Shown here: piece after piece, positions 4,709-63,008 of the stretch
Layout: every line of letters begins with the position of its first letter
How positions within the stretch are numbered: position 1 is the first letter of the stretch
Source of the DNA: Naegleria gruberi
Lineage: Eukaryota
Assembly: GCA_000004985.1 (NCBI GenBank)
Contig: GG738847.1
Strand: one strand, 5' to 3'
DNA length: 64,000 bases
The notes under the pieces: generated by a model
What the model saw: only the letters and a program-made list of their open reading frames with translations
Database searches by the model: none
Told to the model about the DNA's origin: nothing
Position numbers and translations under genes: made by a program

Positions 4709-6151
4709 TTAATGTTCATGGATTGTCTTGGAAACAAGTAAAATTGAGTCTCTGTTGAATCTAGTGACAAATCTCAATCCATAAATACATAATGGAAGTG
4801 TAAACAGAGCAAACACTGCGAGTATAATATTACCAGGAATCGAGTAAATAAACCAGAACGACCAACCAATATAAACCCAAGATCCTTCATGAATTGAAGT
4901 CATAACTCTCTCACAAAAACCTGTATGTAAAGCATCAGAAGCCTGACATACGATATGTACTATTGGGAATGCTACAGCACAAACAGGAATAAGGAAAAAT
5001 ATCATAGAAATGAAAAATGTAAGTAAAGTTATTGGAATTTTCATGGTAAAATAAAGTACAGCAAATCCAACATCTCTACAAAATGCATACTCGAAGCAAC
5101 TATTGTATGATCTTTTTAAATATTCCCAAATACCTCCTCTACTTTCAGATTGGTTGTCAGTGTTGGTCCTAACAGGCTCCTCCACATTAGTATTCAAGAT
5201 GGTGTTAGTTTCAACTATATTTGTTTGAGGCATTATCATTACGCTCGATCTATTATTACCTGTTGATGCCCTTGAAAGTGGATTATTTGAGTGAATATCA
5301 ACTGATCTTCCTAGCATAGTTCCATAATGTTGATAATAATAAGAGTTGTGAGATGTTGGGGAGTGCATTGAGTCTACAGAATTATCAGAGTCATCAGAGT
5401 CGTAATGGTGGAATGATTCATCCAAATTATTTGTTTGTAAAATTTGTTTCATTGGTGAGGTTGGAGAAAGGAAATCTACACTTCTGGCAGGAGGTGTTTT
5501 GAAATAATAATCTCTTTCTGGATCATAAATTGCCCTAGGATCCTGTGTTGCAAGTGAAATATTGTAGGAACTGAATGTATTGGCAGTATTTACATTTTCA
5601 TTCAGTCTACTTTTCTTAATTGGAGAAGGATTAGCCAAATTGGAATCATCGACCTGAATTAAAGGATTTTCTTCCTCCTCTTTGAAATTAGATCTTGCTG
5701 TCAATGAATGAAATCCTTTGACCAATTGTTCCGTGATATTCACTAATTTGAAACGAGGAGCAATTTTATGATTCATTGCAAGCAAATGTCTTGCTAAGAA
5801 TATTTCTACAAGTACAAAGATTCGTGTCAGCCATGCAACACCTGCAAACATGAACATTCCAATAAATATCGGAGAAAAGGCTGTTGCTATTAGCAATCCT
5901 AAATAAATAGTTATAAAATATAGAAAACTCAACGGAAATGATAATAATGTATGTACAAAAGCAAAATAAGGTCTCCTCGTAAAACATGACTTGATAATAT
6001 GTTTTAAATGTTTACGTATTTTAGATGGTTGTATATAATGAGAGCAAAACCATCCTATCCAAGATTTATCCCTCTTCTTTCTCTCGGGAAAGTAGGAAAT
6101 ATATGTTGCATCAACTAGGCTGGAATTAGATCTCCTCCTAGAACTGGACAT
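4709..6151 (-). CDS. Hypothetical polytopic membrane protein of 480 aa, with N- and C-terminal clusters of TM helices separated by an S/N-rich hydrophilic loop.
   Basis: Single uninterrupted ORF with ATG at 6151..6149 and several hydrophobic 20-25 aa segments. No family recognised. Confidence 0.5.
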   Translation of the reverse strand: MSSSRRRSNSSLVDATYISYFPERKKRDKSWIGWFCSHYIQPSKIRKHLKHIIKSCFTRRPYFAFVHTLLSFPLSFLYFITIYLGLLIATAFSPIFIGMFMFAGVAWLTRIFVLVEIFLARHLLAMNHKIAPRFKLVNITEQLVKGFHSLTARSNFKEEEENPLIQVDDSNLANPSPIKKSRLNENVNTANTFSSYNISLATQDPRAIYDPERDYYFKTPPARSVDFLSPTSPMKQILQTNNLDESFHHYDSDDSDNSVDSMHSPTSHNSYYYQHYGTMLGRSVDIHSNNPLSRASTGNNRSSVMIMPQTNIVETNTILNTNVEEPVRTNTDNQSESRGGIWEYLKRSYNSCFEYAFCRDVGFAVLYFTMKIPITLLTFFISMIFFLIPVCAVAFPIVHIVCQASDALHTGFCERVMTSIHEGSWVYIGWSFWFIYSIPGNIILAVFALFTLPLCIYGLRFVTRFNRDSILLVSKTIHEH

Positions 6152-6619
6152 GATTTTTAAAAACTAATTTTAAATATACGTAATTCAACTATCAAATTAT
6201 TATTATATTATCATTAATTTAAATCGATTTGCAATTTTCCTTCCGATTGTTGGATTGTTGAGCGATGATTGTTGAGAGATTTTTTTTCTATTTTAAAAGA
6301 AGTAACAAAAGTAGTCATCAAGCGAGCTTTCTCTTATATTTCTCTTAGTATTAATTTGTGTATCTTGTTTTCTCATTGTCATCATAAAGCACATATTACA
6401 TTGCCATAGAAAGAGTGCAGAGTTGTGATGGAATTTTTATCAAATAAATCTCAAAGAAAAAATAGCAACAAATCCACAAAAGAAAGGAATTTTTTGTCGA
6501 TTCAATTAATTGATTTTTAAATTCCTTCCAATTTTGTGTTTATTATTCGGATCATCAAATCATTAATTTGATATGATCATCAATATACATTACTACAAAC
6601 AATCTAGATTTAAATAAGA

Positions 6620-9208
6620 ATGAAACGACCAATAACGACTAACAGTGGAAATAATGGTAGAAGTAGTTTGACCCGAAACTCTACAATAATCAACAATAAT
6701 TCTTCGGGAAGCATCATGAATACTTCTACAACTACAAATTTTACCACTACTAGTAATAGCGGAACGAATAATAGTAGTGGAACAATATATTATGCAAATA
6801 ATAGCAATAATAACAATCAGAATAATAGAAATACAATGAATGGAAATGGTACAACCTATGCAAGGCCAACATTCGGAAATCCTGTGCCACCAATGATAAA
6901 TACCTCCAATCAACAAGGCAATTCTAATAACGGAACATCTGGTGCTTCTACATTTGTTCCACCTGTGTTTCACAGGCCCAACCCAGCTCCATCGAATGCT
7001 TCATCTAGTACTAGGCCTACTGGGACTGGGACAGCTACAACTCTAAATGTTGAACGCCAGCAGTTCATTCCACCAAAAAATCAACAATTTCAAAGACCTC
7101 AATATTCAACACCCACAAACACACAAAAACGAATTAATAATATTCCACACTCTGGACTTTCCACCCCAAAGTCTGGAAAAAAGCAGCCTTTGCATTTGGT
7201 GAGCTGCCTAAGTCCTCCTTCAACTCAATTTTCCACACCCAACAGATCTACTCAAACACCAACCACACCTGTACAAACAACCTCAAAGCCTAATCCATCT
7301 TCTTCTTCGACTAATACATCTACTCTATTTCCATTTACTTCCAATTCTAATAATTCTTTCATTTCGAATAATAACAATAGTTTTAACAAACCACCACAAA
7401 CAACATCTCATGCTAGATTTGTAATACCAAATAATTATAAACCTCAGGAACAAGTTTCTAGATTGCAATCTTCTACCAATTTATCAGATTCACAAAAAGA
7501 AAATGAGGAAATTGAAAAATTAAAAGCAGAAATTGAATTACTTAGAGGAAATCTTAATAAGAAAAAATTGGAAAATGAGGAATTAGTGAGTGCCAAAAAA
7601 GAAATTGAGGAACAGCTACTTGCAGTACAATCCAAGATGGAAGAAAATCAACAGGAAAATAGTGGAATGCTTGATGAGGATGATGACTTTTTACTTGCTG
7701 TATTGGATGATATCGATGATGAGAAAACGAAAGATGATAAGTCAACCGAGGAAGCCTCACAAAATTCTCAAAAAAAGGAGACTGAAACAGAAGTCCCAAC
7801 TGAGGAAAAGATTGATAAAACAGATGAGAAGATTATTCCACTTATACCCGAAACAGCACCAAAGAAGATATCTAAAAAAAGAGTTAAATGGAAAAATAAG
7901 AATATAGCAGATCTCCAAAAAGATCCTGATCTTCACAAAGCCCTTTACAAACTATTAGTATATAAGGGAAACAGCGATATCAATCCAATGGATCCAATGG
8001 ATACAGATGAGCTAATTAATGAACCACTTTCGGGTAAATTATGGAAGGCTCACAGAACTATTTCAAATGATCAATCTAAAATGTATTCACTTCTGCCAAT
8101 TTTGAATTCCTATCTTAAACAAGCTAAAGAAGAGCAAGACATTGAATTATTCACATGCACACTGGAAACCATTTTAAAATTAGTATTAGAAAGTGAAATG
8201 TTTAGAATTGCTTTTATTGAATCGTTCTCAGAAAGCATTACAGAACTAAAGAGAAAAAAGACTATCCAAGAAAATGGCTATGCCCAACACCCTTTATTCT
8301 CTAGCACAACCATTATCATTCCAGATGGAAAGAAAAGTTCTGTTAAAGGCAAGCTTAGAGAAAAGAGAAAGTATCTACATAACTATTTAAATGATGTAGC
8401 ATACCAACCCGATTATATATTCGATTCTAATATGGATTCTATATTATTTAACCCTGAAGAGGTTCCATTAATTCGTAATGAAGTATCTGAAACAGATCTT
8501 CTTTCAGATTTATTAGGCTATTTCGCTGGTCTTCCAGATTATTTCAATCAAAGGCAGGTAGATATTCTTTGTACGATATTGGACATTGTTAAAACTCTTG
8601 CCATATGGTCTCCTGAATCAGCCCTGGCGAAATTTAATAATTTGATTGAAAATAGTTTGATGAAACAACCAATCACTATCAAAACCATTTTCTCAAATAA
8701 TAATGTTGAACTGATTCAAAAATCCTTAGAAGTCCTTACAATTCTCGTAAAATCAGAAACCATCAGATCATCATTGCAGAGTAATAATATTCTTACTAGA
8801 GTTTCAGCATTCTTGAATGTTGAAGTAGGAACTACAGAAGAAATGTTACAGTGTAGAAGAATGATTTTAAGACTATTCCACTATTTAGCGTTCCTATGCC
8901 CTGATGGAATATCTTTGTTGAAAGAAAAGCACAACAACAATAATATTGTGTTTGACGCCATGATTCTTCTGCTCAGAAAAGAGCTAGAAAACATTGCTTT
9001 ATTAGAAGATTTTTCTAACGAAAGTGAAAGAATTTATCTGATTAGAGACATTATTGTTCTCTTCAATCATATTTCTCGGTTGAATAGTCCAATACCCTAT
9101 GTTTCGCCATCTCTTAGGTTAGACTATATTTATGCCAAGACTACGATATCAATTATTCGAGAAAAGTCAAATTTCAAGGAGAAGTTCCAATTAGATGAAA
9201 TGAAATAA
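6620..9208 (+). CDS. Large hypothetical protein of 862 aa with an Asn/Ser/Thr-rich low-complexity N-terminus, a central coiled coil (EIEKLKAEIELLRGNLNKKKLENEEL) and a C-terminal helical-repeat-like region.
   Basis: Single ORF with ATG at 6620 and strong compositional bias. No confident homology. Confidence 0.5.
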   Translation: MKRPITTNSGNNGRSSLTRNSTIINNNSSGSIMNTSTTTNFTTTSNSGTNNSSGTIYYANNSNNNNQNNRNTMNGNGTTYARPTFGNPVPPMINTSNQQGNSNNGTSGASTFVPPVFHRPNPAPSNASSSTRPTGTGTATTLNVERQQFIPPKNQQFQRPQYSTPTNTQKRINNIPHSGLSTPKSGKKQPLHLVSCLSPPSTQFSTPNRSTQTPTTPVQTTSKPNPSSSSTNTSTLFPFTSNSNNSFISNNNNSFNKPPQTTSHARFVIPNNYKPQEQVSRLQSSTNLSDSQKENEEIEKLKAEIELLRGNLNKKKLENEELVSAKKEIEEQLLAVQSKMEENQQENSGMLDEDDDFLLAVLDDIDDEKTKDDKSTEEASQNSQKKETETEVPTEEKIDKTDEKIIPLIPETAPKKISKKRVKWKNKNIADLQKDPDLHKALYKLLVYKGNSDINPMDPMDTDELINEPLSGKLWKAHRTISNDQSKMYSLLPILNSYLKQAKEEQDIELFTCTLETILKLVLESEMFRIAFIESFSESITELKRKKTIQENGYAQHPLFSSTTIIIPDGKKSSVKGKLREKRKYLHNYLNDVAYQPDYIFDSNMDSILFNPEEVPLIRNEVSETDLLSDLLGYFAGLPDYFNQRQVDILCTILDIVKTLAIWSPESALAKFNNLIENSLMKQPITIKTIFSNNNVELIQKSLEVLTILVKSETIRSSLQSNNILTRVSAFLNVEVGTTEEMLQCRRMILRLFHYLAFLCPDGISLLKEKHNNNNIVFDAMILLLRKELENIALLEDFSNESERIYLIRDIIVLFNHISRLNSPIPYVSPSLRLDYIYAKTTISIIREKSNFKEKFQLDEMK

Positions 9209-57271: not shown

Positions 57272-58810
57272 ATGAGTGATTTTCATGCAAGAAACTATCA
57301 GATAGTATTTGAAGAGGCAATAAAATGTGCCCAGTTTCGAATAGTTTTTCAAAGCTTTTTAGAAAGACATCATAATCAAGAATCTATTCTATTTATTAAC
57401 AAGGTGATTGAATATACTGAAGAATATAAGAAAGTTGTTGGTCTTCCTTTCGAATACGAAACATTCTCGTTAATGTTGAGAGGAAACAATCATCAAGCTG
57501 ACATTCGTATTTCTTCAGCATCATCAAATAGACGAAATACATTAAAACTTTCTAGAAGAAGCTTGCAGAATTTACACGACAAGATGAATTCTATTGTCGA
57601 AACCTTTCTTAGAAATGATGGAGAAAGTGAACTAAACATTGGTCCACTTCAAAAGTCATCTATAGAACTCTGGCAACAAACAAGTCAAAAATTAAGTAGG
57701 GAAGAACAAGATGATGCATGTAGTGAAGGTTCGTCAGGCTCTAGCTCTTCAAATTCTTCATCACTCAGCTATTCGAAACCAAGTTTAGAAAGTCTAATTG
57801 AGGAATTTCATCCTGGGTATTTATTAGGATCTATTTCATTGTTAATTTTGGTAGATTTGAGTTTGGGACACTTTATCAAGTTTTCCCGATCGGAAGAATT
57901 ATTGCACTTCCTTAACAAGATGGGAATGAGCTATACGAGAAAGATTGGAATTGACATTTCGAAAGGATACAAGGTAGATTTGAGATTTAAACCCAATGAT
58001 TTAAAGACACCTGTTATAACGGATGAGCATATTTATTTTGGATTGACATTAGCTCAGGATACACCCGACTGGAAGATTGTTCATGAGAAGAAGAATTTGA
58101 CCGTTAGTACTTCTAGAACATCGTACGTGTTTAATTCCAAGCAAATGAAAGGATTTAAACTTTGTAAATTATCAATTGATCTGCCGTATAGTTTGGAAGA
58201 TGTTTGGGGAATGTGGACCCATCAGAAGAATCATCTCTATTTCGAACCAATGTTTTGTAATAATTTGAATTATCTGAATTATATTGAACCGAATGAGAGC
58301 TTTCATGGAACAACTTGTCCCTATGCTGTAAAGATTATGACCACGGCTTTTGATACCAAGATTCCACTCCTAAAGAAGAGATATGTGGAGACAGTTACAA
58401 CATGTGTAAAAGATAGTGCAATCGATCTTTACATGTTTGTTTTACATACAGCTGATCTTCCTAGTGGAGTTGCAACAATGCCGTCCAATTCTTTAGCAAT
58501 TGAAGGATTGTGTTATTATATAATGATGAGAGTGAATGAGAAGACGACGAGATTTTTGAATATAATGTACTCTGATTTTCAATTACCTTTGCAAAATATG
58601 ACCATTGGGCAAGTATTTAAACAGAGAGGTAAAACCATGTTGAATGGATTGAATTCAATATTACACAAATTGACTGATGGAAGGAAGAATCCTGTTGATA
58701 CCTTAGAAAATGAAGATACAGCTGAAGCTCAACGTTGTGTTGATGATAACATGAAATCTTTCCCAGATAGATCTTGGTATATGGAATGGAAGGGGTTGCA
58801 AAAGAAATAA
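57272..58810 (+). CDS. RGS-domain protein with an N-terminal RGS-like box, a Ser-rich linker and a C-terminal roughly 300-aa globular domain, possibly a lipid-binding or START-like fold.
   Basis: N-terminal ARNYQIVFEEAIKCAQFRIVFQSFLERHHNQESILFINKVIEY resembles RGS helices. The C-terminal domain assignment is speculative. Confidence 0.45.
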   Translation: MSDFHARNYQIVFEEAIKCAQFRIVFQSFLERHHNQESILFINKVIEYTEEYKKVVGLPFEYETFSLMLRGNNHQADIRISSASSNRRNTLKLSRRSLQNLHDKMNSIVETFLRNDGESELNIGPLQKSSIELWQQTSQKLSREEQDDACSEGSSGSSSSNSSSLSYSKPSLESLIEEFHPGYLLGSISLLILVDLSLGHFIKFSRSEELLHFLNKMGMSYTRKIGIDISKGYKVDLRFKPNDLKTPVITDEHIYFGLTLAQDTPDWKIVHEKKNLTVSTSRTSYVFNSKQMKGFKLCKLSIDLPYSLEDVWGMWTHQKNHLYFEPMFCNNLNYLNYIEPNESFHGTTCPYAVKIMTTAFDTKIPLLKKRYVETVTTCVKDSAIDLYMFVLHTADLPSGVATMPSNSLAIEGLCYYIMMRVNEKTTRFLNIMYSDFQLPLQNMTIGQVFKQRGKTMLNGLNSILHKLTDGRKNPVDTLENEDTAEAQRCVDDNMKSFPDRSWYMEWKGLQKK

Positions 58811-58832
58811 ATCATTTTTGAAATTAGATTTA

Positions 58833-61188
58833 TTACTTTGATGCTGTCACATTCTTCTCAGCTTTACCGATTTCGACCTTTCTGGCTCTTTGGGCAAAAC
58901 CAAGAGAACACAGAGTTTCTGGACAACTCTCTGAAGTTGGACTTACATTTACAAACATCAAAATCTTAGAGTTACCTCCCAAAGAGTCTTGTAAAAGTGA
59001 GGTGAGTTTTGAATTTCTAAATGGAATGTGACTCTTCTTAGTTGCCAAGGCAGAAATAACTTCTCCGAGAGAACTCAAACTAGAGTTAATACTTTGAGCT
59101 TCTTTCAGTCTGTCACCCTTAACATCGGTTCTCTTTAATCTTTCGCTACCTGCCAAATCGATCAAGTGAAGCTTGCCTGATACCTTTTGGTTTGTGTACG
59201 TATTGATACCTTCAGTAAAAACACTGACAATACAGTGAGATCTAGAACTGTGTGCGTTGATGTTATTGTTTCCGACTGCTCTATTATCGTAGCCTTGTGA
59301 AAGGACTCTCCTCACATCATCTGATGAGCTCACCTTATACTTGGTCAGGCCTGGAATGGCTACCTTATTACTCAACATGATATCAAGTTTGGTCTTTTCC
59401 TTGCTTAATAAATCAAAGAGTGTTTCATTATAAATTTCCATAACAGCAACTTCAACCTCGTAATTATATTCGCCTTTTCTTTCCTTAACCATTGCGAAAA
59501 GCTCGTCTAGAGTTCTATAATTTACACCACGGTTGGATGGTGATCCTTCCATAGTATAGGTCTTACCAGAACCTGTTTGACCGTAAGCAAAAATACATAC
59601 ATTATAACCGTCCAGAATAGATGTTGCCAGTGGTTTGACATCTTCGAAAACTTGTTCTTGTGTTGAGTTGATTCCAAAAACGTTATCAAACTCAAACTTT
59701 TGAATCTTTTTACCCTCCTTATCAGAAACTTTGATTTCTCTCTCATCTACAGTATCAATACAAGTTTCTGGATTTTGACCGTCCTGCTCTGGAATTATTG
59801 GTCTAATTCTTAAGTTGACTCTAATATTTCCCTTCAGGTCTTGTAACTGGTTGTATAAAACTCTTCTTTCCTTAACTTCCTTCTTGTACTGGTCTTCCAG
59901 ATCTTTATAACCATCTAAAAGTTTCTTCATAGCCTTAGAAGAAATGAGTTGAACAGCATTCAGGAATTCTTTTTGCATATCTTGAGCTTCCTTCTTAAGG
60001 AACCCATTTTCGAACTTGATTGCTTGAACTTGTTTCTTCATTCTAATTACCTTGGTACTCATGTGTTTAATTGATCCGTCTTTCTGTTCCTTCAGTCTTT
60101 GAGAAAGATCCCTAACATCAGTATTGTATTTTTGTTTGACATCTGTCAGAGATTTGTCAAGAGTAACAACTTGCCCTTCGAGTTGAGTATTCTTTTGCTT
60201 CAACTTTTCAATGGTTTTTTGCATATCAGTTGTTGCTGTTGAGTTGGAAGAAGACTTTTCAGCTGCTTGTTTGATCTTCGTTTCGTATTCCTTTTCCATT
60301 TCCTTTTGCTTCTTTTCAAAATCAGCTTGTTGCTTCTGCATCAATTGTTGAACTTCTTGGTTTGAAAGACCAGGCGAGCCTCTTGGTGTTGTTCTTGGAG
60401 TGGTCGATTTCTCTTCACCTCCCTTAGATGCCTCTGTCTTGGTTTTTAAGAGTTCTTCCTTGAGTTTTTTGATTTCTTCCATTTGCTTTTGTTTTATCAT
60501 TTGATCTTCCATTTGTTTTTGCAATGCTTCTTGGAGATCCTTCTTCTTCTTTTCATAGGCCTCTTCAGTAACAAACTTACCACCAGCAGGCATGGCAGTT
60601 GTAATGGTTTGATTTGTGGCTACTGGTTGAGGTGAATTTGATGAACTAGGTTGAGTTTTAGTGACCATTGGACTGGGTTTCTTTTCTGGAACAATGTCAT
60701 CATCGGATTCAATTTCTTCATCTTCATCAGACATTAATTCATCCCAATCTACAGTTCCTAAGCCCAATTGGCTGGCTATTTCTTTTCTTTTTTGGAGTTG
60801 AGGATCAACAGTTTTAGTGTTTGTCTTTTTTGGATCGAATGTGACAGGCTTATTGAATGTTTTTTCTCTTCTTCTCGGGCTTTCCTCAACCATATCTTGC
60901 TAAACATTTAAAAATTAAATCCAAGAATAATCATTAGATACATTCTAAGGAAGATACTATAACACATACCACTCTTCTTACATAATTAGCAGGAAATAAC
61001 CCTACTTCTCCATTAGCTTTTTCTCCAATCCACCAATCACTCTTGTGTGTTTCAATCACTTTAATTTTTTCATATTGTGATAGAGTGAGATGTTGTTTAT
61101 CCGATGGAAAGAATGGATAGAGGACCTCAACAATGAACATTGCTGGACGTCCCGACATGGTCGTATTGCTCGTCTCCGTTGTACTCAT
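58833..61188 (-). CDS. Kinesin-14 (Kar3/Ncd/KIFC family) C-terminal motor with a coiled-coil stalk; predicted N-terminal SH3-domain exon: complement(join(58833..60899,60970..61188)), intron 60900..60969 (70 nt, GTATGT...GTTTAG).
   Basis: Kinesin-14 neck and motor motifs are present (LKGNIRVNLRIRP, FAYGQTGSGKTYTM, SSRSH, DLAGSE). The upstream ORF 60934..61188 encodes an SH3 domain (VLYPFF...SDWWIGE...GLFPANYV). A GTATGT donor lies just past the ANYVRRV of the SH3 ORF and the acceptor sits exactly at the first codon after the in-frame stop. The fusion is inferred, not proven. Confidence 0.75.
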
Positions 61189-61573
61189 ATTATAATACTA
61201 TCCCTTATTCAAAAATGTTGTTGCTTTGATACTATATTGTTGTTCTTGTTGTTGTAATTATATATGTAGGTGGAAATATCTCCTCAAATACAGCAATGAT
61301 GACGTCGACGACTTTTTTCTTGGAACGTCGTAACGTACAATTTGATTTCTTTTTTTTTGGTGGTTTAAGGCGCATTCAAGGCGCAGTTGATGCTCTGAAA
61401 ATCTGTTACATAATTTTGGAGGGAAAAAAGACTTTCCATGATTTCCTTTCAAGAAAGTGTCTTTCGAATGCTTTATGTTTCTCTAATGTTTTTGAAATGG
61501 TTTTGTAATGGCTTTCAAACTACAATTGATTGATGTGAGTTGATTTAATGAGAAATTGTAATTACATGTAAAT

Positions 61574-62881
61574 TCAGAAGAGTGGAGCAACCTTAGAATT
61601 CCATTCATCATTCCATCGGTGGGATTGGAAGTTTTGTTTGAGATGGTTTCTCATGGATTTCAATTTGGAGGAGCCCTCTGGTGAGATGAGTAATTCTTCC
61701 AAGTACTTGGTAAGGTTAGTACTACTGTCAAAGATGTAGCCATTCTCGTCATGTTTGACCAACTCTGGTAATGTCAGATATTTAATAGCACATACTGGAA
61801 GACCACTGCCAAACATGTCGACGACCTTCATTGGAAGATCCAATCCAGAGCTAGAATAGTGGAGACAAACACCAACATCGCTAGATGCCAACAGTTTGGA
61901 ATAATCAGCATAGGACAGGAAGTAAGTTTGAACTCTACAATATTTGAGATTGAGGGAGGCAATCTTTTTGAGATAATACTCCTTTTGAGGCCCTTTACCA
62001 GTAATGATAAATTCCAAATAAATAGAAGGTGAAATACTTTCCAATTTCTTTTCAAGTTCCATAATTGAGGAAAGGAGAATGCTAAAATCCTCATCTTCAG
62101 TCCAACTGGTAGAACTGACAACAAGCTTGAAATTTCTTGAAGTATCAATAGAAAGAACATCCTTGAAAAGTGTATTTCTCTCAGAGTCAGAAAGATTGGA
62201 ACCAAACATTTCTGGTGGTCTGTCATACATTACAGTAACTTTGGATTCACTAATACCCAATCTTTGACACAAATCCTTTTTCAAATGCTCAGAAACACAC
62301 AAGTGATGGGTGGCACAATTCTTAACAAAATTAAATTCTAAAAATGTAGCAAAATTAATCAAATGTTTGTTCTTTCTTGTGAGTGCCAAAATTGAAAATC
62401 CATAATTGTGCCAATCAATAATGTATTCATCCAATTTAATAAGATGTAACTTTTGTAATATCCAAAATAAGAATAAATTTGGGATAGCAGGAGGATTTTG
62501 AGTCAACAAAACCTTCTTACATGAAGAATTTCCAAATGGATTCCTATTAATAATATAACATAATTGAATAGTCATGATTAAAAATTGCAATAAAACCTTC
62601 ACTGGTGCAAAAAGTAAAAACATGGTAAAGTGCAACCTCATCAAATAATTAACCCAATTCCACCACTTTGATGCCAATGGATTAATTTTAATATTCTTTT
62701 GTTTCATGACTTGATCGTGAGGATCGGAATCGTATAATCCAACAAAATCCACATGATGATTTTCTGGGTTCATCCTAGCAAGAGATAGTGAATGGTATTG
62801 CATACGAGGACTGTGTCCCATATCACCTAGAACAAACACAACAAAATGCTTTTTATCGCCAGCATAAACCTGTTTTTTCAT
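61574..62881 (-). CDS. ALG1: Chitobiosyldiphosphodolichol beta-mannosyltransferase ALG1 (GT33), 435 aa. True ATG at 62881..62879.
   Basis: N-terminal VVFVLGDMGHSPRMQYHSLSLA matches the conserved ALG1 start. A C-terminal GT-B-like region has a GSSGLDLPMKVVDMFGSGLPV motif. The track start at 62920 is GTG. Confidence 0.85.
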   Translation of the reverse strand: MKKQVYAGDKKHFVVFVLGDMGHSPRMQYHSLSLARMNPENHHVDFVGLYDSDPHDQVMKQKNIKINPLASKWWNWVNYLMRLHFTMFLLFAPVKVLLQFLIMTIQLCYIINRNPFGNSSCKKVLLTQNPPAIPNLFLFWILQKLHLIKLDEYIIDWHNYGFSILALTRKNKHLINFATFLEFNFVKNCATHHLCVSEHLKKDLCQRLGISESKVTVMYDRPPEMFGSNLSDSERNTLFKDVLSIDTSRNFKLVVSSTSWTEDEDFSILLSSIMELEKKLESISPSIYLEFIITGKGPQKEYYLKKIASLNLKYCRVQTYFLSYADYSKLLASSDVGVCLHYSSSGLDLPMKVVDMFGSGLPVCAIKYLTLPELVKHDENGYIFDSSTNLTKYLEELLISPEGSSKLKSMRNHLKQNFQSHRWNDEWNSKVAPLF

Positions 62882-63008
62882 TTTTTTTAAATTTTTTAAT
62901 GTTTTTAAGTGGTAAACCACACCGAAGAAAGGTACCTCTAATCTGGCGCCTTACTATTTAGTAAATGCACGGTGAAACATATAGCTACTCTTATTATCGT
63001 CAATGTGA

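What the first reader, a model, noticed from the sequence alone, without database searches (positions are those of the whole stretch)
58833..61188. SH3-domain exon predicted to splice in frame onto a kinesin-14 motor gene
ORF 60934..61188 encodes a complete SH3 domain with its own ATG. A GTATGT donor follows the last conserved SH3 residues (ANYVRRV). A TTTAG acceptor lies exactly where the kinesin-14 reading frame opens after a stop. The 70-nt intron fits the local size distribution and the frame is preserved. I do not recall this N-terminal SH3 plus coiled coil plus C-terminal kinesin-14 motor architecture among described kinesins, and it would suggest cargo or regulatory coupling via proline-rich ligands.
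Basis: inference. Interest (0 to 1): 0.6.

Follow-up and report, generated by a model that had tools for sequence, protein, structure and literature searches.

The report
Naegleria SH3–kinesin-14 gene, already annotated
The predicted splice is real: one Naegleria gruberi gene joins an SH3 adaptor domain to a minus-end kinesin-14 motor, an architecture shared across heterolobosean amoebae, but public databases have held exactly this gene model since 2010 and its function is untested.

Summary
On the minus strand, exon 1 (61188..60970, 73 codons, SH3 domain) ends in phase 0. A 70-nt GTATGT…TTTAG intron follows (60969..60900). Exon 2 (60899..58833) then continues in frame into a coiled-coil stalk and a C-terminal kinesin-14 motor.

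The splice is strongly supported by comparison. An intron of 38–139 nt sits at the identical phase-0 position, right after ANYxRx, in N. fowleri, Willaertia magna, Acrasis kona and two metagenome contigs. A Pharyngomonas kirbyi transcript encodes the same SH3–kinesin as one ORF. Only N. gruberi has a Met (60893) just after the junction, so that ATG is not a conserved start.

The N. fowleri annotation as two genes (SH3 protein plus kinesin) is caused by ±1 frameshifts that differ between two near-identical contigs.

The 761-aa spliced product is identical to XP_002682529.1/EFC49785.1, "kinesin-14 [Naegleria gruberi]" (UniProt D2V0T4). A 2024 preprint draws an SH3 domain in its domain map of the five Naegleria kinesin-14 paralogs but does not discuss it.

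The finding is therefore correct but already known. What remains open is what the SH3 binds. The motor is closest to KIFC3 and KCBP (kinesin-14B type). I found no SH3–kinesin outside Heterolobosea.

The parts
61189..61573 (-). Upstream intergenic region (385 nt; presumed promoter and 5' UTR) between the stop of the upstream glycosyltransferase-like ORF and the SH3 start codon. An in-frame TAG lies at 61198-61200.
   Evidence: No transcript data were available.
60970..61188 (-). Exon 1: 73 codons from ATG 61188, ending in phase 0 after ANYVRRV.
   Evidence: Identical to residues 1-73 of XP_002682529.1.
60979..61125 (-). SH3 domain (residues 22-70), with VLYPF (ALYDY-like), WW (W52 W53) and FPANYV.
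   Evidence: Pfam SH3_1/SH3_9/SH3_2, E 1e-11 to 4e-10. AlphaFold2 pLDDT about 90 with five strands. Foldseek TM 0.84-0.92 to canonical SH3 domains. W52, W53, G63, P66, N68 and Y69 are invariant in five species.
60900..60969 (-). 70-nt spliceosomal intron, GTATGT...CTAAT...TTTAG. Read-through would add VCVIVSSLECI and then a stop.
   Evidence: An intron sits at the same phase-0 site in N. fowleri (139 nt), Willaertia (53), Acrasis (44), L005 (54) and L006 (38).
58833..60899 (-). Exon 2: residues 74-761 plus the TAA stop (58833-58835). It encodes the tail, the stalk and the kinesin-14 motor.
60891..60893 (-). Internal ATG (Met76), the start of the mechanically listed 686-aa ORF. It is not conserved as Met in any ortholog.
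   Evidence: N. fowleri has ATT. L006 reads HDI, Willaertia NNI, Acrasis TGE and L005 TGT.
60771..60899 (-). Basic patch of the tail (residues 74-116, pI 9.9). It contains the invariant motif [KR]-P-x-x-[FYH]-x-P (K90-P96, nt 60831-60851).
   Evidence: Low AlphaFold2 confidence and no docking on the SH3.
60684..60770 (-). Acidic stretch (residues 117-145, pI 4.05; DWDELMSDEDEEIESDDD).
   Evidence: An acidic run is present in all orthologs.
59844..60563 (-). K/E-rich stalk (residues 186-425), interrupted by the Pro/Gly-rich TTPRTTPRGSPG (239-250, nt 60369-60404). The heptad pattern is strongest from about residue 300 to 425.
   Evidence: Crude a/d-position count, which is not a proper coiled-coil prediction. 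The preprint figure key lists 'Coiled-coil'.
58836..59843 (-). Kinesin-14 neck (LQDLKGNIRV, 425-434) and C-terminal motor domain: P-loop GQTGSGKT 513-520, switch I SSRSH 624-628, switch II DLAGSE 654-659.
   Evidence: Pfam Kinesin, E 9e-111, residues 437-748. PDB best hits are KIFC3 (320 bits), KCBP (291) and Ncd (252). Motif coordinates.

Best explanation
This is one protein-coding gene of Naegleria gruberi on the minus strand (CDS 61188..58833). It has two exons separated by a 70-nt spliceosomal intron.

Its 761-aa product contains:
- an N-terminal SH3 domain;
- a short basic patch with an invariant [KR]Pxx[FYH]xP motif;
- an acidic stretch;
- a K/E-rich stalk;
- a C-terminal kinesin-14 neck and motor.

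Shown here: the gene structure, the domain content and the conservation of the fusion across Heterolobosea.

Inferred from what is known of kinesin-14s (Ncd, Kar3, KIFC3, KCBP): the protein dimerises through the stalk and moves toward microtubule minus ends. Its N-terminal tail decides what it is attached to.

Here the tail's conserved module is an SH3 domain with an intact peptide-binding surface. The motor is therefore most likely recruited to, or regulated by, a partner with a proline-rich motif. This parallels the way plant kinesin-14s use N-terminal CH or MyTH4-FERM domains. The basic patch may give a second microtubule contact or a nuclear import signal, which is speculative.
For: - Coordinates, phase and open frame are as described.
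- SH3 and Kinesin Pfam hits are above their thresholds.
- The spliced product is identical to XP_002682529.1, 'kinesin-14 [Naegleria gruberi]'.
- Full-length SH3+kinesin orthologs exist in Willaertia (54% identity, 97% coverage), Acrasis and Pharyngomonas; the last is a transcript ORF.
- The intron position and phase are the same in six genomes or contigs.
- Met76 is not conserved.
- SH3 identity is 69/42/38%, against 11-41% for the rest of the tail and stalk.
- The SH3 binding-surface residues are invariant.
- The SH3 fold is modelled with confidence and matches peptide-bound SH3 structures.
- The motor is closest to KIFC3 and KCBP, and kinesin-14s fill the top 14 PDB rows ahead of kinesin-2.
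- The N. fowleri two-gene split is explained by frameshifts that differ between two 99%-identical contigs.
Against: - No N. gruberi RNA evidence could be examined here. The splice in this species rests on comparative evidence and on the existing gene model.
- Nothing was tested about dimerisation, directionality or SH3 ligands.
- No canonical PxxP partner is identified.
- I could not tell which of the five paralogs in the preprint, and so which expression class (mitosis or flagellate differentiation), this gene is.
Confidence: 0.9

Rival explanations
1. Two separate genes. An 84-aa stand-alone SH3 mini-protein (61188..60934, ending VVCVIVSSLECI-stop) is followed by an independent kinesin-14 mRNA translated from ATG 60893.
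For: - Both ORFs exist mechanically.
- N. fowleri is annotated as separate SH3 and kinesin genes at two loci.
- Prokaryote-style gene callers on metagenome contigs list the SH3 exon as its own ORF.
Against: - Only 70 nt separate the two ORFs, which leaves no room for a terminator and a promoter.
- The read-through tail is not conserved. N. fowleri stops after 'VVS'.
- Met76 is absent from every ortholog.
- The annotated N. fowleri SH3 protein already splices exon 1 to the linker. The split lies further downstream, at frameshifts that differ between duplicate contigs.
- Willaertia, Acrasis and the Pharyngomonas transcript encode the fusion.
Confidence: 0.03
2. The fusion is the main product, but N. 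gruberi also makes an SH3-less isoform from Met76, through intron retention or an alternative transcription start. This would give a switchable cargo-binding head.
For: N. gruberi, uniquely among the species compared, has an in-frame ATG two codons after the acceptor.
Against: - There is no direct evidence for it.
- A single non-conserved Met is expected by chance.
- With the intron retained, the ribosome would have to reinitiate after an 84-codon ORF.
Confidence: 0.07
3. The SH3-kinesin juxtaposition is a gene-model or assembly artefact, or a recent and functionally neutral exon capture.
For: None beyond the general error rate of automated gene models.
Against: - The same architecture and intron site occur in lineages as distant as Acrasis and Pharyngomonas.
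- The SH3 is more conserved than the tail and stalk.
Confidence: 0.01

Closest known systems
XP_002682529.1 / EFC49785.1 / UniProt D2V0T4, 'kinesin-14 [Naegleria gruberi]'
   Same: It is the same gene.
   Different: Nothing. The record is an automated 2010 annotation with no experimental characterisation that I could find.
Heterolobosean orthologs: Willaertia magna ABK040_006668 (766 aa), Acrasis kona 'kinesin' (883 aa), Pharyngomonas kirbyi transcript GECH01001464 (806 aa), and N. fowleri FDP41_002925 plus the adjacent kinesin model
   Same: All share the SH3, linker, stalk and C-terminal kinesin-14 order. In the genomic cases the intron sits at the same phase-0 site after the SH3. Motor identity is 61-81%.
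   Different: Tail and stalk lengths and sequences diverge (11-41% identity). N. fowleri is mis-split into two gene models by frameshifts. N. fowleri and the L006 contig have an extra intron at the P-loop that N. gruberi lacks.
Animal KIFC3 and plant KCBP/KCH (kinesin-14B-type motors)
   Same: These are the closest solved motor domains: KIFC3 5wde at 320 bits, KCBP 3h4s at 291 bits. They have a C-terminal motor with a kinesin-14 neck. From established knowledge, KCBP and KCH carry an N-terminal accessory binding domain (MyTH4-FERM and CH respectively), which is the same design principle.
   Different: The accessory domain here is an SH3. None of these families is described with one. No calmodulin-binding extension follows the motor, and the protein ends 13 residues after the Pfam motor match.
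Ncd / Kar3 / KIFC1 (kinesin-14A)
   Same: The neck plus motor aligns from residue 409 onward at 212-252 bits. The overall layout is tail, coiled coil and C-terminal motor.
   Different: They score lower than KIFC3 and KCBP. From established knowledge, their tails are unstructured basic microtubule-binding regions (or pair with Cik1/Vik1), not folded adaptor domains.
Class I myosins with tail SH3 domains (human Myo1e, Entamoeba myosin IB)
   Same: A cytoskeletal motor carries a canonical SH3 in its tail. These SH3 domains are among the best structural matches (rmsd 0.8 Å).
   Different: They belong to a different motor superfamily and run on a different track (actin). Their SH3 is C-terminal. 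The resemblance is one of design, not of family.

Membership tests
Kinesin-14 | Kinesin motor domain with P-loop, switch I and switch II | tested here: met
   Pfam PF00225, E 9.4e-111, covering profile positions 1-327 of 327. GQTGSGKT, SSRSH and DLAGSE are present.
Kinesin-14 | Motor at the C-terminus, preceded by the class-specific neck (…LKGNIRV) and a coiled-coil stalk | tested here: met
   The motor spans 437-748 of 761 residues. The neck LQDLKGNIRV is at 425-434. Alignments to Ncd and Kar3 neck-plus-motor constructs begin at residues 397-412. The stalk was judged only by a crude heptad count.
Kinesin-14 | Closest relatives are kinesin-14s (family placement) | tested here: met
   The top 14 PDB rows are KIFC3, KCBP, Ncd and Kar3, ahead of kinesin-2 and kinesin-1. 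No tree was built here. Kennard et al. assign five N. gruberi kinesin-14s by phylogeny, and NCBI names the protein kinesin-14.
Kinesin-14 | Minus-end-directed motility as a dimer | not testable with these tools
   Needs gliding or single-molecule assays.
SH3 domain | Sequence match to SH3 profiles above curated thresholds | tested here: met
   In the fusion, SH3_1 scores 39.7 bits (cut-off 22.9), SH3_9 40.0 (30) and SH3_2 32.3 (21.8). Scores are higher for exon 1 alone.
SH3 domain | Five-stranded beta-barrel fold | tested here: met
   AlphaFold2 gives pLDDT about 90 over residues 20-70, with strands 18-22, 41-47, 52-56, 62-66 and 70-75. Foldseek TM (target-normalised) is 0.84-0.92 and rmsd 0.8-1.8 Å to Sho1, Abl, Src, Myo1e and beta-PIX SH3 domains.
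SH3 domain | Conserved peptide-binding surface (ALYDY Tyr, WW, Pro and Tyr of the 3-10 helix) | tested here: met
   W52, W53, G63, P66, N68 and Y69 are invariant. Y/F24 is conserved in 4 of 5 species.
SH3 domain | Binding of proline-rich or related peptide ligands | not testable with these tools
   No partner is known. No conserved PxxP lies in cis. AlphaFold2 does not dock the nearby KPxxFxP motif.
Spliceosomal intron | GT…AG borders, reading frame restored, stop codon if retained | tested here: met
Spliceosomal intron | Position conserved in orthologs | tested here: met
   The same phase-0 site is used in N. fowleri, Willaertia, Acrasis, L005 and L006.
Spliceosomal intron | Spliced transcript observed in this species | not testable with these tools
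   No N. gruberi RNA data were accessible. The only transcript-level support is the Pharyngomonas kirbyi TSA ORF.

The most novel reading that the evidence does not exclude
The SH3-kinesin-14 is a Heterolobosea-specific motor class, conserved since before Pharyngomonas diverged. Its SH3 recruits a minus-end-directed microtubule motor to proline-rich partners, for example actin regulators. That would make it an actin-microtubule coupling motor, analogous to plant KCH or KCBP, in amoebae that build microtubules only for mitosis and flagellate differentiation. The invariant [KR]Pxx[FYH]xP motif next to the SH3 would be part of that regulation.
Probability: 0.15. Interest if true: 0.5.

Novelty: already known. 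Interest (0 to 1): 0.2.

Why it matters
For genome annotation, it matters little.

The follow-up adds three things:
- The fusion is ancient and Heterolobosea-wide, with a conserved intron site.
- The two-gene annotation in the N. fowleri ATCC 30894 assembly is an artefact of frameshifts.
- The SH3 is under stronger constraint than the rest of the tail.

Biologically, a kinesin-14 with a folded adaptor domain in its tail is unusual outside plants. Naegleria is an emerging model for how distinct microtubule arrays (the mitotic spindle and the flagellar apparatus) use distinct motors. Finding the SH3 partner would show what this motor is attached to. That is an ordinary, tractable cell-biology question, not a long-standing puzzle.

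Tried and rejected
- **Separate SH3 and kinesin genes.** Rejected; see the rival explanations.
- **The N. fowleri split is real.** Rejected. L001 has two ±1 frameshifts, one in an A-rich run near 5740 and one near 6340. The 98.6-99.9%-identical duplicate contig L004 differs by 7 indels and lacks the second frameshift.
- **P0062 is a second SH3-kinesin paralog in N. fowleri.** Rejected. It has the same neighbours and near-identical DNA, so it is a duplicate contig.
- **Intramolecular autoinhibition by a PxxP in the tail.** No PxxP is conserved. AlphaFold2 gives the invariant KPxx[FY]xP motif low confidence and does not dock it. This is unsupported but not excluded.
- **SH3-kinesins outside Heterolobosea.** The exhaustive profile search with the N-terminal region returned only the known orthologs as full-profile single-stretch hits. 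Ten long proteins with N-terminal SH3 domains had no kinesin domain. The nearest non-heterolobosean kinesins carry VHS, TPR, CBM20 or CH domains instead. This is not an exhaustive test of all SH3+kinesin architectures.
- **Mapping the gene to a JGI identifier and expression class in Kennard et al.** This failed. Data S2 is truncated in the held copy, and no paper cites the accessions.
- **Exact look-up of the 686-aa ORF.** Not on record.
- **The bacterial promoter/terminator scan.** Irrelevant for a eukaryote, so ignored.

Full report
**1. Observation**

Reading the minus strand confirms every stated feature.
- The ORF from ATG 61188 has an in-frame TAG at 61198-61200, just upstream. It encodes MSTT…GLFPANYVRRV and reaches the end of a codon at 60970.
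- GTATGT follows at 60969.
- The read-through tail, VCVIVSSLECI, ends at a stop (ORF end 60934).
- TTTAG ends at 60900, and its TAG is the in-frame stop before the 686-aa kinesin ORF.
- Removing 60969..60900 (70 nt) joins V73 to Q74-D75-M76 in frame and gives a 761-aa product.
- Only this acceptor works. The AGs at 13 and 25 nt lead into stops.
- A CTAAT branch-like motif lies 34 nt from the 3' splice site.
- GC drops to 25-28% over the intron.

Pfam finds SH3_1, SH3_9 and SH3_2 at residues 22-70 and the Kinesin domain at residues 437-748, all above their curated cut-offs.

**2. What it is**

A homology search with the spliced product returned three full-length proteins with SH3 plus kinesin:
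- Willaertia magna: 766 aa, 54% identity, 97% coverage;
- Acrasis kona: 883 aa;
- a transcript ORF, GECH01001464 (806 aa), which the exact look-up identifies as Pharyngomonas kirbyi.

These span the known depth of Heterolobosea. That Pharyngomonas is deep-branching is my own background knowledge.

The same exact look-up shows that the 761-aa spliced product is already in GenBank, RefSeq and UniProt. It is EFC49785.1 / XP_002682529.1 / D2V0T4, "kinesin-14 [Naegleria gruberi]". The neighbouring ORF 57272..58810 is NAEGRDRAFT_45771.

**3. Independent support for the splice**

An intron sits at the same phase-0 position, immediately after ANY-x-R-x, in five other genomes or contigs:

| Source | Junction | Intron |
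|---|---|---|
| Willaertia | after ANYARRV | 53 nt, the only intron in the gene |
| Acrasis | SNYVARI, GTTTGT…TCAG, TGEEEP | 44 nt |
| N. fowleri | ANYVRRV, GTAAGT…CTGCAG, QDIAEES | 139 nt |
| L006, Naegleria-like metagenome contig | ANYVRRV, GTAAGT…TTCAG, HDISQES | 38 nt |
| L005, more distant 45-kb metagenome contig | ANYVQRL, GTGAGT…AATAG, TGTSTEN | 54 nt; a kinesin ORF follows on the same strand |

In none of these is the residue matching Met76 a methionine, so ATG 60893 is not a conserved start codon.

The Pharyngomonas sequence is a transcript assembly, so at RNA level the fusion is one ORF in at least one relative.

Identity per region shows that the SH3 is the second most conserved part after the motor:

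| Region | Willaertia | Acrasis | Pharyngomonas |
|---|---|---|---|
| SH3 | 69% | 42% | 38% |
| Rest of tail and stalk | 36-41% | 11-25% | 13-31% |
| Neck and motor | 77% | 69% | 61% |

**4. The apparent counter-example**

N. fowleri ATCC 30894 (GCA_008403515.1) is annotated as two genes: an SH3 protein of 223 aa and a kinesin of 475 aa.
- The SH3 model already splices exon 1 onto the linker. The break lies further downstream.
- Three-frame translation shows plain ±1 frameshifts. One is in an A-rich run near L001 5740 and one is near 6340. The orthologous sequence continues in another frame each time.
- A second locus, L004, with the same neighbours, is 98.6-99.9% identical. It differs by 7 indels over 2.8 kb and lacks the second frameshift.

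Frameshifts that differ between two near-identical copies point to consensus indel errors, not to a real split. I have not seen other N. fowleri assemblies, so a real lesion at the first site is not excluded.

**5. Domains and likely mechanism**

- **Motor.** It has the P-loop, switch I and switch II motifs and the kinesin-14 neck, LQDLKGNIRV. The best solved relatives are KIFC3 (320 bits) and KCBP (291 and 281 bits). Ncd (about 250), Kar3 (about 240) and KIFC1 (212) follow. This is a kinesin-14B-like profile, but no tree was built.
- **SH3.** It is modelled with pLDDT about 90 as a five-stranded barrel. It superposes on canonical peptide-binding SH3 domains with target-normalised TM 0.84-0.92. 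W52, W53, G63, P66, N68 and Y69 are invariant across five species.
- **Between SH3 and stalk.** There is a basic patch (pI 9.9) containing an invariant [KR]Pxx[FYH]xP motif, followed by an acidic run (pI 4.05).
- **Self-binding.** No PxxP is conserved in cis, and AlphaFold2 does not dock the motif on the SH3. A self-inhibited SH3 is therefore unsupported.

By inference from other kinesin-14s, the protein is a dimeric minus-end-directed motor whose attachment is set by its tail. Here that means an SH3-mediated interaction with a proline-rich partner. The design is comparable to the CH and MyTH4-FERM domains of plant KCH and KCBP.

**6. What is known**

- No paper in the searchable library cites the accession, and none discusses an SH3-kinesin.
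- Kennard et al. (bioRxiv 10.1101/2024.01.08.573270) report five N. gruberi kinesin-14 paralogs. Two are up-regulated in mitosis and three in flagellate differentiation.
- Their Supplemental Figure S3B domain map has the key "Coiled-coil, Motor domain, SH3". The main text never mentions SH3.
- I could not map this gene to one of their identifiers.

**7. Distribution**

- An exhaustive profile search with the SH3-plus-linker region found only the known orthologs as full-profile single-stretch hits.
- Ten other long proteins with N-terminal SH3 domains lack a kinesin domain.
- The nearest non-heterolobosean kinesins carry other N-terminal domains: VHS, TPR, CBM20 or CH.

The fusion looks specific to Heterolobosea, but this was not a complete survey.

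**8. Verdict**

- The interpretation, an in-frame splice giving an SH3-kinesin-14, is supported.
- Novelty is nil at the level of the gene model, which has been public since 2010.
- Residual interest lies in an uncharacterised, lineage-wide motor architecture.

Noticed in passing
L001 4964-7601 and L004 5001-7691 (N. fowleri GCA_008403515.1, contigs VFQX01000031.1 and VFQX01000068.1): The ortholog is annotated as two genes at each of two loci: FDP41_002925 plus a kinesin, and FDP41_009434 plus a kinesin. The two loci share neighbours and are 98.6-99.9% identical, with 7 indels over 2.8 kb and a run of N in L004. This looks like a redundant contig or haplotig carrying homopolymer indel errors that break the reading frame.
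   Followed up: partly
window 60831-60851 (residues K90-P96); L005 about 5290-5320; L006 about 900-925: An invariant motif, [KR]-P-x-x-[F/Y/H]-x-P, lies about 20 residues after the SH3 domain in all seven sequences compared. It is not a classical PxxP. AlphaFold2 gives it low confidence, and its role is unknown.
   Followed up: partly
window 60369-60404 (residues 239-250, TTPRTTPRGSPG): A Thr-Pro-rich break in the stalk recurs in the orthologs: N. fowleri TTPRTTPRG, Willaertia NPTTPR, Acrasis TPTTPSITPSTPTK. It could be a hinge or a set of proline-directed phosphorylation sites.
   Followed up: no
window 58811-58832: Only 22 nt separate the stop codon of the convergent gene NAEGRDRAFT_45771 (57272..58810, +) from the stop of the kinesin (58833, -). 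Their 3' UTRs must overlap or be extremely short.
   Followed up: no
L001 about 6770-6850; L006 about 2173-2207: N. fowleri and the Naegleria-like contig L006 have an extra short intron at or just after the P-loop codons (GQTGSGK|T…). It is absent from the uninterrupted N. gruberi exon 2 and from Willaertia, so an intron was gained or lost within the genus.
   Followed up: partly
(tool behaviour): The homology search did not return the N. gruberi protein itself, although the exact look-up shows it is in the collection. A 626-nt ENA contig carries the identical 84-aa read-through ORF (P0058). That is a prokaryote-style ORF call on Naegleria DNA and not evidence for a stand-alone SH3 protein.
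   Followed up: yes
window 57272-58810 (+) and 61574-62920 (-): The downstream neighbour (512 aa) has no Pfam match. The upstream neighbour is a group-1 glycosyltransferase-like ORF whose listed ORF starts at GTG, so its true start or first exon probably lies elsewhere. In N. fowleri and Willaertia the upstream neighbours are EF-hand genes instead, so synteny is not kept on that side.
   Followed up: partly
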